The translations under genes were made by a program, and so were the position numbers. A DNA stretch of 64,000 bases from Escherichia phage JN02. Where the stretch lies: sequence record MT782071.1; one strand, 5' to 3'. Within the stretch, counting starts at the first letter, position 1. Every line of letters starts with the position of its first letter. Below are positions 12,312 to 17,031 of this stretch, piece after piece. The notes under the pieces were generated by a model. It was not told the DNA's origin. It saw only the letters and a program-made list of their open reading frames with translations, and did not search any database.

Positions 12312-12782
12312 TTAATCATGTTTCCACACCCCATCGGTATTTGACCAAAGTCGCTGATTATCTGATCCTCGCCACAGTTTTTTGGTCGGAAGATTTTTCT
12401 CATACTTCCCATCAATAATAACATCAACATATTTAAGCATTTCTAGTTGTTTAATATCTTCAAATTTATATCCTGTCCACAACCAAATGCTTTTATTGGG
12501 ATAAAGATTTTTTACTGTTTGAACAATGCAATGAACAACATCTCGGTTATCAGGATAGAGCGGGTCTCCTCCAGTTATAGTTAATCCTTCTATATAATCA
12601 TTATTCAAACATTCAATTAATTGTTCCAGTGTTTCACCAGTGAATGGAACGCCATTTCTAGCGTTCCATGTTGATTTATTATAACACCCTTCGCATTTAT
12701 GCAAACAACCTGTAACGAAAAGAACGACCCTGCATCCAGGGCCATTCACAAAATCGCAAGGATAAAATCTATCATAATTCAT
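12312..12782 (-). CDS. nrdG: Anaerobic ribonucleotide reductase activating protein NrdG (radical SAM)
   Basis: 156 aa; radical-SAM Cys cluster CRVVLFVTGCLHKCEGCYN; 4-nt overlap with nrdD. Confidence 0.9.
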   Translation of the reverse strand: MNYDRFYPCDFVNGPGCRVVLFVTGCLHKCEGCYNKSTWNARNGVPFTGETLEQLIECLNNDYIEGLTITGGDPLYPDNRDVVHCIVQTVKNLYPNKSIWLWTGYKFEDIKQLEMLKYVDVIIDGKYEKNLPTKKLWRGSDNQRLWSNTDGVWKHD

Positions 12783-14596
12783 TGGTGTTTAACCCTATGC
12801 ATGATTTCTTTATTTTTGCCGAGATTAAATCCGCGTTCGTTCGGATTTCCCAAATAACCACAAGTTCTTCTTATTGTGTTCATCTTTTTAGGATCAGTTT
12901 CTCCACAAATAGAACAAACAAATCCATTTTCGGTAGGAGTCATTTCATGGGTACTTCCACACGTAAAACATTTATCTACTGGCATATTAACACCAAAATA
13001 ATCTAAATGTTGTGCAGCATAATCCCATACAGCCTCAAGACCTTTTAAGTTATTTTTCATATCAGGAAGTTCAACATAAGAAATGTGTCCACCTGTCGCA
13101 ATGAAATGATATGGGGCTTCGCGAGAAATCTTTTCAAACGGAGTAATATTTTCTTCTACTGAAACATGGAAACTATTAGTGTACCAGCCTTTATCAGTAA
13201 CATCCTTTACACTTCCATATTTTTCGGTATCAAGTTTACAGAAGCGATAACAAAGGTTTTCAGCGGGAGTAGAATACAAGCTAAAAGCAAAACCAGTTCT
13301 TTCAGTCCACTGCTTAAGACGAGCATTCATTTTAGTCAAAATTTCCTGTCCAATATCACGACCGACAAGAATATTCAATTCGTGAATTCCAATGTATCCC
13401 AAAGACACTGAACTTCTGCCGTTTTTAAATAACTCAATTATATCGTCATCAGGTTTAAGACGAACCCCGAATGCACCTTCTTGGTAAAGAATAGGAGCAA
13501 CAGTTGCTTTAACACCCTTTAAAGAACTAATTCTACACATCAAGGCTTCAAAACACAAATCCATTCGTTCATTGAACAATTCGGCAAATTTCTGTTCATT
13601 GAATTGTGTTCCAATATAAGAATCTAACGCAATACGAGGAAGATTCAGTGTTACAACGCCAAGATTATTACGTCCATCAAGAATTTCATTACCAGTCGAA
13701 TCTTTCCATACGCTCAAGAAACTACGGCAACCCATTGGAGAAACAGGAATAGATGAACCGGTGATAACTTTATTATTCTTAACTGAAATAATATCAGGAT
13801 ACATCCTTTTGCTTGCACACTCTAGAGCAAGCTGCTTAATATCGTAGTTCGGGTCGTCTTTATAAAGATTGACACCCTCTTCAACGAACATAACAAGTTT
13901 AGGGAAAATAGGAGTTATTCCATCACGACCAAGGCCTTTAATTCGGTTTTTAAGAATTGCCTTCTGAATAATTCGTTCAGTCCAGTCAGTTCCAGTACCA
14001 AATGTAATTGTTACAAAAGGCGTTTGTCCGTTTGAACTAAAGAGAGTATTTACTTCATATTCATAAGCTTGGAATGCGTCATAGACATCTTTTTCTGTTT
14101 TAGATTGGGCATAATTCAACGCATCAGCGATTTGCCATTTTTCTGCATCCTCAATATGTTTTGCATAGGTGCGTTTAACATAAGGAGAAAGTACTTTATC
14201 TACATTAGCAAAAGTCGTTCCGCCGTACTGATGTGAAGCAACCTGCGCAGTAATTTGTGCCATAATTGCAGTAGCAACGCCAATCGATTTAGGCGTTTCA
14301 ATTTGAGCATTACCTAGCTTAAATCCTTTTTCAAGCATTCCTTTTAAATCTACTAAACAACAATTAGTAAATGGAAGAGCAGGGGAATAATCAATATCGT
14401 GGAAATGGATAATTCCGCTTTCATGTGCTTTCATAATAAAAGACGGGACCATATTTTTGGCAATGTGCTTAGACACAATACCAGCCATAAGGTCCCGTTG
14501 AGTTGGAAAAACACGAGAATCTTTATTAGCATTCTCGTTCAAAAGATCTTTATTAGTTTTATGAATTAATCCTTCAATTTCTTTTTCAATTTTCAT
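12779..14596 (-). CDS. nrdD: Anaerobic ribonucleoside-triphosphate reductase NrdD
   Basis: 605 aa uninterrupted; C-terminal zinc-ribbon cysteines (CFTCGSTHEMTPTENGFVCSICGETD) and glycyl-radical loop RRTCGYLG; same length as spliced T4 NrdD. Confidence 0.93.
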   Translation of the reverse strand: MKIEKEIEGLIHKTNKDLLNENANKDSRVFPTQRDLMAGIVSKHIAKNMVPSFIMKAHESGIIHFHDIDYSPALPFTNCCLVDLKGMLEKGFKLGNAQIETPKSIGVATAIMAQITAQVASHQYGGTTFANVDKVLSPYVKRTYAKHIEDAEKWQIADALNYAQSKTEKDVYDAFQAYEYEVNTLFSSNGQTPFVTITFGTGTDWTERIIQKAILKNRIKGLGRDGITPIFPKLVMFVEEGVNLYKDDPNYDIKQLALECASKRMYPDIISVKNNKVITGSSIPVSPMGCRSFLSVWKDSTGNEILDGRNNLGVVTLNLPRIALDSYIGTQFNEQKFAELFNERMDLCFEALMCRISSLKGVKATVAPILYQEGAFGVRLKPDDDIIELFKNGRSSVSLGYIGIHELNILVGRDIGQEILTKMNARLKQWTERTGFAFSLYSTPAENLCYRFCKLDTEKYGSVKDVTDKGWYTNSFHVSVEENITPFEKISREAPYHFIATGGHISYVELPDMKNNLKGLEAVWDYAAQHLDYFGVNMPVDKCFTCGSTHEMTPTENGFVCSICGETDPKKMNTIRRTCGYLGNPNERGFNLGKNKEIMHRVKHQ

Positions 14597-15066
14597 TTTA
14601 AACTCTTTCTAAGCTGCTTTTTGAATGAAGCTATTAATTGTGTTTTGGTATCAGATTCATTATATTCAAATCCTCTTTGAAGCATCTCGGCCATCATTTC
14701 CTCTTTACCTAGTCTTGAGAACTCTTTAGTTTTGTCTGGAACAAAATTAGGATGGATATTATTATCAGAATAATCTTGTTTCAAATAAGCAAGAAGAGCT
14801 TCAAGCCATTCGAGGTAGTCGACATCACGTCCTTTAAGACCGGAACGGTTGAACTTATGCTTCATTTGACCTTCTGCTGCATTGCACAGATTACAGAGTA
14901 ACCCACGAACTCTACCTGCTTTTGGCCCGTTTAATTCGTGGTCGTGGTCAAGATGGTTACCTTGAACATCAGGGTCTAATTCACGGTGGCAAATAGGACA
15001 CTTACCGTTCTGTGCATCATAAAATTTTTGTTTTTCTTCTTTATATTTTGCGCCTGATAATAACAT
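14593..15066 (-). CDS. 49: Endonuclease VII (Holliday-junction resolvase) gp49
   Basis: 157 aa; MLLSGAKYKEEKQKFYDAQNGKCPICHRELD...ASFKKQLRKSLK, near-identical to T4 endo VII as recalled. Confidence 0.93.
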   Translation of the reverse strand: MLLSGAKYKEEKQKFYDAQNGKCPICHRELDPDVQGNHLDHDHELNGPKAGRVRGLLCNLCNAAEGQMKHKFNRSGLKGRDVDYLEWLEALLAYLKQDYSDNNIHPNFVPDKTKEFSRLGKEEMMAEMLQRGFEYNESDTKTQLIASFKKQLRKSLK

Positions 15067-15095
15067 GATAAACCCTTACCTTAAATAGATAAGGG

Positions 15096-15103
15096 TATTT
15101 ATA
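15096..15103 (-). promoter_or_regulatory. Late promoter (TATAAATA) upstream of gene 49
   Basis: Minus strand TATAAATA about 30 nt upstream of the gene 49 ATG; T4 gene 49 is known to have late expression; a 7-bp stem hairpin (ACCCTTA/TAAGGGT) lies between promoter and ATG. Confidence 0.5.
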
Positions 15104-15105
15104 AT

Positions 15106-15285
15106 TTAGTAAACGTTATAAAAGTCTCGATGAAAACGTTTATATTGACGAATCATTCTTTTAGTAGGACGTGTTACCGAAATGATTGAAGTCCTCATGT
15201 TCGGATTGTTTGGAGCACCAATTATAACAAATTTCCAAGATTTTTGACCGTTTGTTCTTTCGCCAAAAAATAATGCAGTTTTCAT
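15106..15285 (-). CDS. Small basic protein (59 aa), paralog of 15710..15880
   Basis: Manual translation MKTALFFGERTNGQKSWKFVIIGAPNNPNMRTSIISVTRPTKRMIRQYKRFHRDFYNVY; AAGGG SD; shares the RPTKR..R..KR.HR.FY C-terminus with the ORF at 15710..15880. Confidence 0.4.
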   Translation of the reverse strand: MKTALFFGERTNGQKSWKFVIIGAPNNPNMRTSIISVTRPTKRMIRQYKRFHRDFYNVY

Positions 15286-15294
15286 AATAAGCCC

Positions 15295-15708
15295 TTAACT
15301 TAAACGTCTTTCTAAATATTCAATGTATTCCGCTGCGGCTTGCATCAGATTACCTTCATAACCGTCATTATTTTCTTGGGCGGCTAATTTAGCTAAAGCA
15401 TAAGAAATACGTTCACCTTCGAATTCGCCAAGTCCACTGCCACAAACTACTTGGTCAATTTCTTCGAGTTCATCTATTGAATGGGATTCCCAGAAGCACC
15501 AAAGAGAAGTATCACGGTCATAGATGCAAAGTTTCTCACCTGTGTTCAACATCACTTCGATAATGCCATGGTCGCCATAACCATCTTCGGTAGTAGTACC
15601 AATTACCTTGACGATTGTTCCTTTCTTTAATTCAGGAAACTTGTCTTGTAGTTCTTCGTCTTCTTTAACAATCTTGAACCATTTACCGCGAGTTTCAGAA
15701 ATATTCAT
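15295..15708 (-). CDS. Hypothetical protein (137 aa)
   Basis: Track ORF 15295..15846; the N-terminal 46 codons overlap the upstream small ORF in another frame; ATG at 15708 has SD GAGGA with 7-nt spacer. Acidic protein. Confidence 0.6.
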   Translation of the reverse strand: MNISETRGKWFKIVKEDEELQDKFPELKKGTIVKVIGTTTEDGYGDHGIIEVMLNTGEKLCIYDRDTSLWCFWESHSIDELEEIDQVVCGSGLGEFEGERISYALAKLAAQENNDGYEGNLMQAAAEYIEYLERRLS

Positions 15709-15709
15709 A

Positions 15710-15880
15710 TCAATATCCTCTATAAAAGTTACGATGAGAACGTTTAGCTTTGCGAAGCTGACGTTTAGTAGGACGAACTGTAAATGGTTGTCCAGAGAAA
15801 AAATTCGGATCGGTTTTAATAAGCAAATACCAATCATGTTTGCCATTTTTTAATAAACGGTACAATAATTTAACTTGCAT
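15710..15880 (-). CDS. Small basic protein (56 aa), paralog of 15106..15285
   Basis: Track ORF 15710..15907; from the internal Met reads MQVKLLYRLLKNGKHDWYLLIKTDPNFFSGQPFTVRPTKRQLRKAKRSHRNFYRGY, which aligns with the ORF at 15106..15285. Confidence 0.45.
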   Translation of the reverse strand: MQVKLLYRLLKNGKHDWYLLIKTDPNFFSGQPFTVRPTKRQLRKAKRSHRNFYRGY

Positions 15881-16008
15881 AATAATCTCTTCCCATTTCC
15901 ATATCAATTAATTCATTTATTGAAGGCTCATCATAACATGTTTCTTCGTCGTTGTAAACTGTTTCGACGTCTGGCTCGACTGTCTCCCAGCGCGCCAAAT
16001 ACCACGGT

Positions 16009-16365
16009 TTAACCCCGGAGTTTATTGAGCTCTTCATAATCAATCCAGGATTCTAGCCCTGAAGGCAGGTCACATTCAATGTTCCACAGAAGCTCTTCAA
16101 TGGCTTGCAGGCGATTATATTCTTCAACGGTAATGGTAACCATTGGTGCAACCGGTTCTGCCTTTTTAACCATCATATCGTTCATCAGGACGTAAAGGTC
16201 ATCACGAACGACAGTGTCGTTCCAACCCCATGATTTGGCTTCGTAAGCTAATGATGAAGGGAGCACATTTAAAACTTCAATAATAGTTGGAGCATCAGGA
16301 CCAAGTTCATTGGCACAAACTTCGTATACATCTTGGAAATCTTTAAGATTTAATGAATATGTCAT
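16009..16365 (-). CDS. Hypothetical protein
   Basis: 118-aa track ORF, acidic; 4-nt overlap with nrdC. Confidence 0.6.
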   Translation of the reverse strand: MTYSLNLKDFQDVYEVCANELGPDAPTIIEVLNVLPSSLAYEAKSWGWNDTVVRDDLYVLMNDMMVKKAEPVAPMVTITVEEYNRLQAIEELLWNIECDLPSGLESWIDYEELNKLRG

Positions 16366-16625
16366 TTAAAATATTCTCGTAGTTGGTCAAATCCACCAAT
16401 ATGACTTCCATCAGGAGCAAACACTTGAGGCATAGTCAATCCGACTTGTGATTCACGTCCAAGCTTAACCAGAAGCTCAGCAATTTTCTCATCATCGAAC
16501 ACACCTTTTTCTGGCATAACATTAATGAATTCGAATGGCTGTTTCTTAACAGTCAGCAATCGTTTCGCATTATCACAATAAATGCATTTATGAATAGTAG
16601 AGTCATACCCGTACACTTTAAACAT
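16362..16625 (-). CDS. nrdC: Glutaredoxin/thioredoxin NrdC
   Basis: Track ORF 16362..16643; from M7 reads MFKVYGYDSTIHKCIYCDNAKRLLTVKKQPFEFINVMPEKG...GGFDQLREYFK, about 90 percent identical to T4 NrdC as recalled; CIYC redox motif. Confidence 0.9.
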   Translation of the reverse strand: MFKVYGYDSTIHKCIYCDNAKRLLTVKKQPFEFINVMPEKGVFDDEKIAELLVKLGRESQVGLTMPQVFAPDGSHIGGFDQLREYFK

Positions 16626-17031
16626 TATTTTTCCTTTCATCAATTAAATATGCAACGCCAAATACAATACATGTAATAAAACCTGTGATACAGATAGAAA
16701 CCAACAACACTGTACCAAAGAACCAAATCAAGTTATCTTTAGTAGTTTGTTTGATATCCATCTCACGAATTTCTATAGCTATCGTATCACCTTTATTCAG
16801 AAGCGTATAAAATGATGGAGATACACGCCTGTCAAAAACTCGTCCTTGCTCATCTTTATAGACTGCAATAAATTCTAATTTAGAATATTTTCCTGTAGAT
16901 TGGCCTGAGATTAATTCCACTACCTCCACAGGAATTACTTTAGTTTCCATGTAAGTATTCTGGCTGTTCCAAATGAATGGAATAATAGCAAAAACTAAAG
17001 CTGCGATAAAACAACGAAGGCTATATCTCAT
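16618..17031 (-). CDS. Membrane protein
   Basis: 137 aa; hydrophobic segments at the N-terminus (FIAALVFAIIPFIW) and C-terminus (WFFGTVLLVSICITGFITCIVFGVAYLI). Confidence 0.6.
   Translation of the reverse strand: MRYSLRCFIAALVFAIIPFIWNSQNTYMETKVIPVEVVELISGQSTGKYSKLEFIAVYKDEQGRVFDRRVSPSFYTLLNKGDTIAIEIREMDIKQTTKDNLIWFFGTVLLVSICITGFITCIVFGVAYLIDERKNNV

What the first reader, a model, noticed from the sequence alone, without database searches (positions are those of the whole stretch)
15106..15880. Two paralogous small basic proteins flanking a 137-aa gene downstream of endonuclease VII
Hand-translated ORFs at 15106..15285 (59 aa) and 15710..15880 (56 aa) share a C-terminal R-P-T-K-R-x-x-R-x-x-K-R-x-H-R-x-F-Y pattern and bracket an acidic 137-aa protein. 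Both are overprinted by longer frames in the ORF track. Small highly basic proteins next to an acidic partner suggest nucleic-acid-binding or inhibitor/partner pairs.
Basis: seen in the sequence. Interest (0 to 1): 0.45.

Follow-up and report, generated by a model that had tools for sequence, protein, structure and literature searches.

The report
Two DUF7279 genes flanking pinA
The two small basic ORFs are real, already catalogued paralogous genes of unknown function (Pfam DUF7279) that sit on either side of the Lon-protease inhibitor gene pinA in an RB69-like T4-type phage; they are ordinary accessory genes of a variable region, not an obligate partner pair.

Summary
ORF A (15106-15285, 59 aa) and ORF B (15710-15880, 56 aa), both on the minus strand, are paralogues: BLASTP E 4e-11, and both score about 54 bits against Pfam DUF7279, whose cutoff is 24.5. 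They flank a 137-aa gene that is PinA, the T4 inhibitor of host Lon protease.

The window is an RB69/JS09-like Mosigvirus. Identical proteins are already annotated as "hypothetical" in GenBank, and RB69 lists them as ORF087c and ORF089c.

The short frames are the constrained ones. pN/pS is 0.25-0.27 in the called frames and 0.64-2.3 in the other frames, and the longer "track" extensions are not conserved.

A occupies a slot just upstream of gene 49 that is conserved in six Tevenvirinae genera. B is a diverged extra copy specific to Mosigvirus.

Pin and DUF7279 each occur without the other, so they are not an obligate pair. The two copies do serve as recombination substrates, because some Mosigviruses carry a B/A chimera with pin deleted. 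In T4 itself, the last 15 residues of PinA are a remnant of this gene.

AlphaFold gives a three-strand sheet plus an amphipathic C-terminal helix with an invariant Arg/Lys stripe. No structure of known function matches it. The function is unknown. My best guess, unproven, is polyanion (nucleic-acid) binding.

The parts
15106..15285 (-). DUF7279 paralogue A (59 aa, pI 11.4). It sits in the conserved slot immediately upstream of gene 49 and corresponds to RB69ORF087c.
   Evidence: ORF. PF23945 at 53.8 bits and phrog_3272 at E 2e-30. 100% identical annotated proteins exist in TU01 and NHEP36. pN/pS is 0.27 in frame against 1.3-2.3 out of frame. An AAGGG Shine-Dalgarno lies 7 nt before the ATG. 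The AF2 model has pLDDT 90.6.
15295..15708 (-). pinA, the inhibitor of host Lon protease (137 aa, pI 4.4)
   Evidence: PF10465 Inhibitor_I24 at 164.5 bits and phrog_2167 at E 2.5e-51. It is 51% identical to T4 Pin. A GAGGA Shine-Dalgarno lies inside the 3' end of B, and the B stop codon TGA is 1 nt before the pin ATG.
15710..15880 (-). DUF7279 paralogue B (56 aa, pI 11.1). It is a Mosigvirus-specific diverged copy between gene 49.1 and pin. In the RB69 record it is the frameshifted RB69ORF089c.
   Evidence: PF23945 at 54.5 bits and phrog_3272 at E 1.3e-26. Orthologues at 80% identity or more occur in about 145 phage records, and 402 of 405 hit records cover at least 80% of the query in one piece. 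pN/pS is 0.25 in frame. The AF2 model has pLDDT 84.6 with the same topology as A.
15870..16037 (-). gp49.1 homologue (55 aa, acidic, pI 4.05). Its stop codon overlaps the start of B by 11 nt.
   Evidence: phrog_2382 at E 4.9e-28. It is 63% identical to T4 gp49.1. RB69 and TU01 annotate it.
15096..15103 (-). TATAAATA, a match to the T4 late-promoter consensus, between A and gene 49
   Evidence: Exact match. The motif is not enriched window-wide, so its position is what matters. The same sequence and spacing are conserved in T4, RB33, OE5505 and Shf125875. The late-promoter assignment rests on established T4 knowledge and was not tested here.
15072..15096 (-). 10-bp hairpin ACCCUUAUCU/AGGUAAGGGU that covers the Shine-Dalgarno of gene 49
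   Evidence: RNA fold gives -14.1 kcal/mol with z -2.85. It is conserved in T4, RB33 and OE5505. The OE5505 and G2285 records annotate it as a 'putative terminator'.
14593..15066 (-). gene 49, endonuclease VII, the conserved downstream neighbour of the DUF7279 slot
   Evidence: PF02945 plus PF09124 and phrog_423 at E 5e-61.

Best explanation
Shown. A and B are two genuine, translated-frame-constrained paralogous genes of the Tevenvirinae-restricted family DUF7279 (PF23945, phrog_3272). They lie in the variable nrdC-to-49 early region of an RB69/JS09-like Mosigvirus.

A occupies the family's conserved slot, directly upstream of the late promoter and hairpin of gene 49. B is a diverged second copy placed between gene 49.1 and pinA. 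Both genes are tightly packed with their neighbours: the stop of 49.1 overlaps the start of B, the stop of B is 1 nt from the pin ATG, and the stop of pin is 9 nt from the A ATG.

Each protein is predicted with high confidence to be a three-stranded antiparallel sheet followed by one amphipathic C-terminal helix. The hydrophobic face of the helix packs on the sheet. The opposite face carries an invariant stripe of basic residues at A positions K42, R/K43, R46, K49, R50 and R53.

Inferred. The proteins are small, dispensable, early accessory proteins that use this basic stripe to bind a polyanionic ligand, most likely RNA or DNA. They act independently of PinA.

Shown as a side effect. Because they are direct repeats on either side of pin, the two copies act as recombination substrates that delete pin.
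For: Identity and reality of the genes:
- Family matches are above curated cutoffs.
- Paralogy has E 4e-11.
- pN/pS is 0.25-0.27 in the called frames and 0.64-2.3 in the other frames, with no internal stops in any orthologue examined.
- Homologues at 38-58% identity occur in Tequatrovirus, Dhakavirus and Gelderlandvirus. More distant DUF7279 members (23-33% identity) occur in Moonvirus and Karamvirus. All are at the same locus.

Restricted range: an exhaustive HMM search of 1.84 billion representatives found only T4-like phage proteins, plus one spurious ankyrin-repeat hit.

Slot conservation: DUF7279 lies immediately upstream of gene 49 in OE5505, RB33, MN04, Merlin, CkP1 and G2285. A is closer to those copies (53-57% identity) than B is (34-44%).

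Fold: AF2 gives pLDDT 90.6 for A and 84.6 for B, with strands at 2-9, 15-24 and 27-36 and a helix at 42-58.

Basic stripe: positions 42, 43, 46, 49, 50 and 53 are basic in 89-100% of 19 sequences. The basic and hydrophobic moments point about 200 degrees apart.

Constraint tied to the intact protein: in the remnant tail fused to T4 PinA, two invariant arginines have become Gln (MIQQYKRLHQMFYNT). In the RB33 fused copy one has.

Independence from pin: all presence/absence combinations are observed. In the phage collection, pin at 80% identity or more occurs in 122 records, B in about 145 and A in about 54.

Recombination: the single gene in Shf125875 and FL18, and protein P0001 of phiE142, follow B up to ...HRNFY and then carry A's ending (NVY or NIY). 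The Shf125875 DNA continues into A's 3' flank, with the crossover inside the shared ACTTTTATA. In Shf125875 and FL18 pin is gone.
Against: There is no direct evidence for any ligand.
- No Pfam nucleic-acid-binding domain is hit.
- BFVD returns only uncharacterised family members.
- No paper mentions the family.
- A basic stripe would serve equally well for binding an acidic protein.
- Expression timing is inferred from position and T4 knowledge. It was not measured.
- T4 and many Mosigviruses do without A, so any function is conditional.
Confidence: 0.4

Rival explanations
1. Partner or modulator of the acidic neighbours or of Lon. The basic helix of DUF7279 binds acidic PinA (or acidic gp49.1), or binds Lon itself. 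On this reading the proteins cooperate with, titrate or are protected by the Lon inhibitor, and the T4 PinA C-terminal tail is a natural 'Rosetta-stone' fusion showing a functional link.
For: Charge is complementary: A +9.6 and B +11.7, against Pin -15 and gp49.1 -9.5.

Adjacency and tight packing with pin or 49.1 recur in Mosigvirus, Tequatrovirus and Moonvirus. Dhakavirus MN04 keeps only a 57-aa C-terminal Pin fragment directly before DUF7279.

T4 and RB33 PinA carry the family's helix remnant in frame.

Pin and A lie in the same frame, separated by one stop plus 3 codons.

Small basic phage proteins such as lambda N are classical Lon substrates (my own knowledge, not tested here).
Against: Co-occurrence fails in both directions. 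DUF7279 occurs without pin in Shf125875, FL18 and CkP1. Pin occurs without DUF7279 in T4, and with unrelated neighbours in Klebsiella and Serratia phages.

Most Pin homologues lack the tail, with lengths of 137-148 aa.

In the fused tail the invariant Arg46 and Arg53 have decayed to Gln. That looks like a deletion scar rather than a selected module.

No complex prediction could be run.
Confidence: 0.15
2. Host-takeover or anti-defence protein that targets a host protein rather than nucleic acid. On this reading it is one of several interchangeable small genes in a variable accessory slot next to the anti-toxin-antitoxin factor PinA.
For: The slot between pin and gene 49 holds different small genes in different genera: DUF7279, phrog_13441 or phrog_23745.

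Presence is patchy and copy number varies even within one genus.

The neighbours include PinA and a 118-aa ORF whose C-terminus matches a PHROG annotated 'antitoxin'.

Distribution is confined to Tevenvirinae of enterobacteria.
Against: No match to any known anti-defence protein or to any structure of known function. This is purely guilt by association. No PADLOC or anti-defence library test applies.
Confidence: 0.2
3. The small ORFs are not genes. The real products are the longer overlapping frames (the 183-aa extended Pin and the 65-aa extended B), or the similarity reflects a repeated DNA element.
For: The longer ORFs exist in the window. The RB69 GenBank record has a frameshift in B while the long pin-extension frame stays open.
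Against: The RB69 change is a single extra A in an A6 run. It affects 2 of 405 records, and both are the same RB69 genome. The same record also splits the neighbouring 118-aa gene.

The extension frame shows pN/pS 1.51, loses its start in KAW3E185, and is absent where B is absent.

Protein-level conservation extends across genera at 23-58% identity, where DNA similarity is low.
Confidence: 0.02

Closest known systems
Pfam PF23945 (DUF7279) / PHROG 3272, e.g. RB69ORF087c (AAP75989.1) and RB69ORF089c (AAP75991.1)
   Same: A and B are full-length members scoring above the curated cutoff. A is 86% identical to RB69ORF087c, and proteins identical to A and B are annotated in TU01 and NHEP36.
   Different: Nothing differs in kind. 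The family has no assigned function and no literature. The RB69 record truncates B through a homopolymer frameshift.
C-terminal 15 residues of T4 PinA (NP_049694.1, 161 aa)
   Same: The T4 tail MIQQYKRLHQMFYNT aligns in frame with the family helix MIRQYKRLHRMFYNT. The DNA alignment with OE5505 shows one in-frame deletion that joins the end of pin (...TCTGACCGA) to the ATGATT codons of the helix.
   Different: Only the helix remnant survives. The sheet is gone and two invariant arginines are now Gln, so this is a scar and not an intact domain.
Double-stranded-RNA-binding domain (dsRBD), as a functional analogy only
   Same: Both have a beta-beta-beta-alpha arrangement with a Lys/Arg cluster at the start of the final helix. 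In DUF7279 this is PTK(K/R)xxRxxKR, and in dsRBDs it is KKxAK (the dsRBD motif is from my own knowledge). There are weak fold hits to RDE-4, DCL4 and Dicer dsRBDs.
Arginine-rich small phage regulators such as lambda N, as a functional analogy only
   Same: Both are small, very basic, early phage proteins with an Arg/Lys-rich helix. Lambda N is a Lon substrate (my own knowledge).
   Different: There is no sequence relationship. DUF7279 is predicted to be a folded sheet-plus-helix domain, not a disordered peptide.

Membership tests
Pfam DUF7279 (PF23945) | Whole-protein HMM score above the gathering cutoff of 24.5 bits, covering most of the 53-position model | tested here: met
   A scores 53.8 bits over model positions 4-53. 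B scores 54.5 bits over model positions 1-53.
PHROG 3272 | Full-length match to the 59-position profile | tested here: met
   A has E 2e-30 over positions 1-59 of 59. B has E 1.3e-26 over positions 1-58 of 59.
DUF7279 (genomic context) | Location in the nrdC-49.1-(pin)-49 early region of Tevenvirinae, immediately upstream of gene 49 | tested here: met
   A meets this, as do the homologues in OE5505, RB33, MN04, Merlin, CkP1 and G2285. B sits one gene further upstream.
PinA peptidase inhibitor I24 (PF10465), for the middle 137-aa gene | HMM score above the cutoff of 27 bits over the whole model | tested here: met
   164.5 bits over positions 2-136 of 136. It is 51% identical to T4 Pin. Lon inhibition itself cannot be tested with these tools.
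Obligate two-gene partner / toxin-antitoxin-like pair (DUF7279 with PinA) | Strict co-occurrence of the two components across genomes | tested here: not met
   DUF7279 occurs without pin in Shf125875, FL18 and CkP1. Pin occurs without intact DUF7279 in T4, and with unrelated neighbours in Klebsiella and Serratia phages.
Obligate two-gene partner / toxin-antitoxin-like pair (DUF7279 with PinA) | Physical interaction between the two proteins | not testable with these tools
dsRBD (double-stranded RNA-binding domain) | Alpha-beta-beta-beta-alpha fold with a significant sequence or structure match | tested here: not met

The most novel reading that the evidence does not exclude
DUF7279 could be a Lon- or PinA-directed module. 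On this reading its basic helix docks on PinA or on the Lon N-domain, or acts as a degron-like tag. The helix fused to T4 PinA, which is the protein used in all Lon-inhibition biochemistry, would then contribute to Lon binding. This would make the B-pin-A cassette a three-part anti-Lon system rather than one inhibitor plus two bystanders.
Probability: 0.08. Interest if true: 0.55.

Novelty: already known. Interest (0 to 1): 0.22.

Why it matters
On its own this matters little. The genes are catalogued hypothetical proteins of a narrow phage family.

Two by-products may be useful to T4 specialists.

1. The PinA protein of T4 used as the reference Lon inhibitor carries a 15-residue C-terminal tail that is a deletion scar from a neighbouring gene. 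Most natural Pin proteins lack it. This should be kept in mind when mapping the Lon-binding surface.

2. The locus is a clean natural example of how paralogous small genes flanking an accessory gene drive its loss by recombination in the plastic regions of T4-like genomes.

If the function of DUF7279 were found, it would add one more early host-directed or nucleic-acid-directed factor to the T4 repertoire.

Tried and rejected
- Word-indexed homologue searches with A and B alone gave only close relatives.
- A profile search of 1.84 billion representatives gave only family members, plus an ankyrin-repeat protein that matched through repeat composition. I rejected that hit as spurious.
- The PDB sequence search found nothing: the best hit had E 1.1 and was an enolase-superfamily fragment.
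- T4 PinA has no solved structure.
- NCBIfam had no model for these proteins.
- Rfam found nothing credible in the region.
- The sigma-70 promoter and terminator scan was no better than shuffled sequence.
- Literature searches for DUF7279, PF23945, phrog_3272 and RB69ORF087c found nothing relevant. The 1988 pin paper is not held.
- A third copy elsewhere in the 64-kb window was sought and not found. The best other ORF had E 0.2-0.3 and no Pfam hit.
- The 116-aa gene between the two Gelderlandvirus copies shows no detectable similarity to Pin by BLASTP.

Full report
**What is in the sequence**

All genes in this part of the window are on the minus strand. In the direction of transcription the order is:
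- nrdC (16362-16643)
- a 118-aa ORF (16009-16365)
- a gp49.1 homologue (15870-16037)
- ORF B (15710-15880, 56 aa)
- a 137-aa gene (15295-15708)
- ORF A (15106-15285, 59 aa)
- gene 49, endonuclease VII (14593-15066)
- nrdD (12779-14596)

The region is 98.5% identical to Escherichia phage vB_EcoM_TU01 and 97% identical to RB69. The window is therefore a Mosigvirus of the RB69/JS09 type.

**Check of the observation**

A and B are at the reported coordinates and share the reported C-terminal pattern.
- BLASTP aligns them end to end at 36% identity with E 4e-11.
- Each independently matches Pfam DUF7279 (PF23945) at 53.8 and 54.5 bits against a cutoff of 24.5.
- Each matches phrog_3272 at E 2e-30 and 1.3e-26.
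- A has pI 11.4 and net charge +9.6. B has pI 11.1 and net charge +11.7. The middle protein has pI 4.4 and net charge -15.

The middle protein is not anonymous. It is PinA, the T4-type inhibitor of host Lon protease, with 164.5 bits against PF10465 and 51% identity to T4 Pin. No further copy of the family exists in the 64-kb window.

**Are the short ORFs the real genes?**

Yes, on four lines of evidence.
- Annotated proteins identical to A and B exist in TU01 and NHEP36. RB69 lists them as ORF087c and ORF089c.
- Among Mosigvirus orthologues, pN/pS is 0.25 for B and 0.27 for A in the called frames, with no internal stops. The other two same-strand frames give 0.64-2.3 and contain stops.
- The 46-codon N-terminal extension that turns pin into a 183-aa ORF lies in the frame with pN/pS 1.51. 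It loses its start codon in KAW3E185 and shrinks to 6 codons in genomes without B (G2285, OE5505, T4).
- The 9-codon TTG extension of B is the out-of-frame reading of the conserved 3' end of gene 49.1. The same 'LIWRWD' peptide precedes pin in T4.

Each short gene has a Shine-Dalgarno sequence at the right distance, and neighbouring genes are tightly packed:
- The stop of 49.1 overlaps the start of B by 11 nt.
- The stop of B (TGA) is 1 nt before the pin ATG, with GAGGA inside the end of B.
- The stop of pin is 9 nt before the A ATG, with AAGGG between them.

That change is one extra A in an A6 run. It affects 2 of 405 records, and both are the same RB69 genome. The same record also splits the neighbouring 118-aa gene. 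I read it as a strain-specific or sequencing lesion, not evidence against the gene.

**Distribution and history**

A profile search of 1.84 billion representative proteins found only small proteins of T4-like phages. The single other hit was an ankyrin-repeat protein that matched through its repeats.

In the phage collection, the family appears in Mosigvirus, Tequatrovirus, Dhakavirus, Gelderlandvirus, Moonvirus and Karamvirus, always between nrdC and gene 49.

The conserved position is immediately upstream of the late promoter and hairpin of gene 49, which is where A lies. A is 53-57% identical to the Tequatrovirus and Dhakavirus copies. B is only 34-44% identical to them. A is therefore the positional orthologue, and B is a diverged extra copy confined to Mosigvirus.

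Counts in the collection are about 145 records with B at 80% identity or more, about 54 with A, and 122 with the Mosigvirus-type pin.

**Relation to pin**

Every combination of these genes occurs.

| Arrangement | Genomes |
|---|---|
| B-pin-A | window, TU01, UGJNEcP1, RB69 |
| B-pin | F2, LF82-5, KAW3E185 |
| pin-A | Mosigvirus G2285, Tequatrovirus OE5505 |
| one DUF7279 gene, no pin | Shf125875, FL18, CkP1 |
| pin, no intact DUF7279 | T4 |
| 57-aa C-terminal Pin fragment followed by DUF7279 | Dhakavirus MN04 |
| two DUF7279 copies around an unrelated 116-aa gene (phrog_13441) | Gelderlandvirus UTK0003 |
| pin followed by phrog_13441 or phrog_23745 instead of DUF7279 | Serratia X20, Klebsiella phage |

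The association with pin is therefore positional and facultative. The slot behaves like other plastic accessory regions of T4-type genomes. That general concept is from my own knowledge of the T4 literature.

**Recombination products**

The single gene of Shf125875 and FL18, and protein P0001 of phiE142, follow B up to ...KRSHRNFY and then end in NVY or NIY like A. The Shf125875 DNA continues into A's 3' flank and the TATAAATA motif. The crossover lies in the shared ACTTTTATA, and in Shf125875 and FL18 pin plus most of A are missing. The two paralogues therefore act as direct repeats that can delete pin.

T4 PinA (161 aa) ends ...ISFSDRMIQQYKRLHQMFYNT. In OE5505, Pin ends ...ISFSDRAF* and is followed by MKTEL...RPTKKMIRQYKRLHRMFYNT*. 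The DNA alignment shows one in-frame deletion in T4 that joins ...TCTGACCGA to ATGATT....

RB33 carries the fused allele, then a 21-nt repeat of the pin 3' end, then a full-length DUF7279 gene.

In the fused tails the otherwise invariant Arg46 and Arg53 have become Gln: both in T4, and Arg53 only in RB33. This points to relaxed constraint. The tail looks like a scar and not a selected module.

**Structure**

With a 19-sequence alignment, AlphaFold2 predicts A at mean pLDDT 90.6 and B at 84.6 with the same topology. The strands are at 2-9, 15-24 and 27-36 and the helix is at 42-58, in A numbering.

The helix is amphipathic. Positions 44, 45, 48, 51, 55 and 56 are hydrophobic. Positions 42, 43, 46, 49, 50 and 53 are basic in 89-100% of sequences. 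The two moments point about 200 degrees apart.

Fold searches were uninformative.
- Foldseek against the PDB gives nothing below E 0.7.
- BFVD returns only uncharacterised family members.
- Weak hits to dsRBDs and Pur-alpha are below significance.

**How it most likely works**

These points are shown:
- The genes are real and their frames are constrained.
- They are paralogous and confined to Tevenvirinae.
- They are tightly packed with their neighbours.
- They are dispensable in many relatives.
- They are predicted to be small folded sheet-plus-helix proteins with an invariant exposed basic stripe.

These points are inferred:
- The stripe is the functional surface and binds a polyanion. RNA or DNA is the most economical guess. 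I give the mechanism roughly 0.35-0.4.
- Expression is early, read from upstream promoters, because the only recognisable late promoter lies downstream of A.

The rivals are:
- binding to acidic PinA, gp49.1 or Lon (about 0.15), which is weakened by the lack of co-occurrence and the decaying T4 tail;
- a host-protein-directed accessory or anti-defence role (about 0.2), supported only by context;
- not being genes at all (about 0.02), which is contradicted above.

**Comparison with what is known, and verdict**

The two ORFs are members of an already curated family of unknown function, and identical proteins are already in GenBank. No paper discusses them. As a finding this is ordinary.

Its partner-pair interpretation is not supported, and its nucleic-acid-binding suggestion remains a reasonable untested guess.

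The most useful by-products are the origin of the T4 PinA C-terminal tail and the recombinational plasticity of the pin locus.

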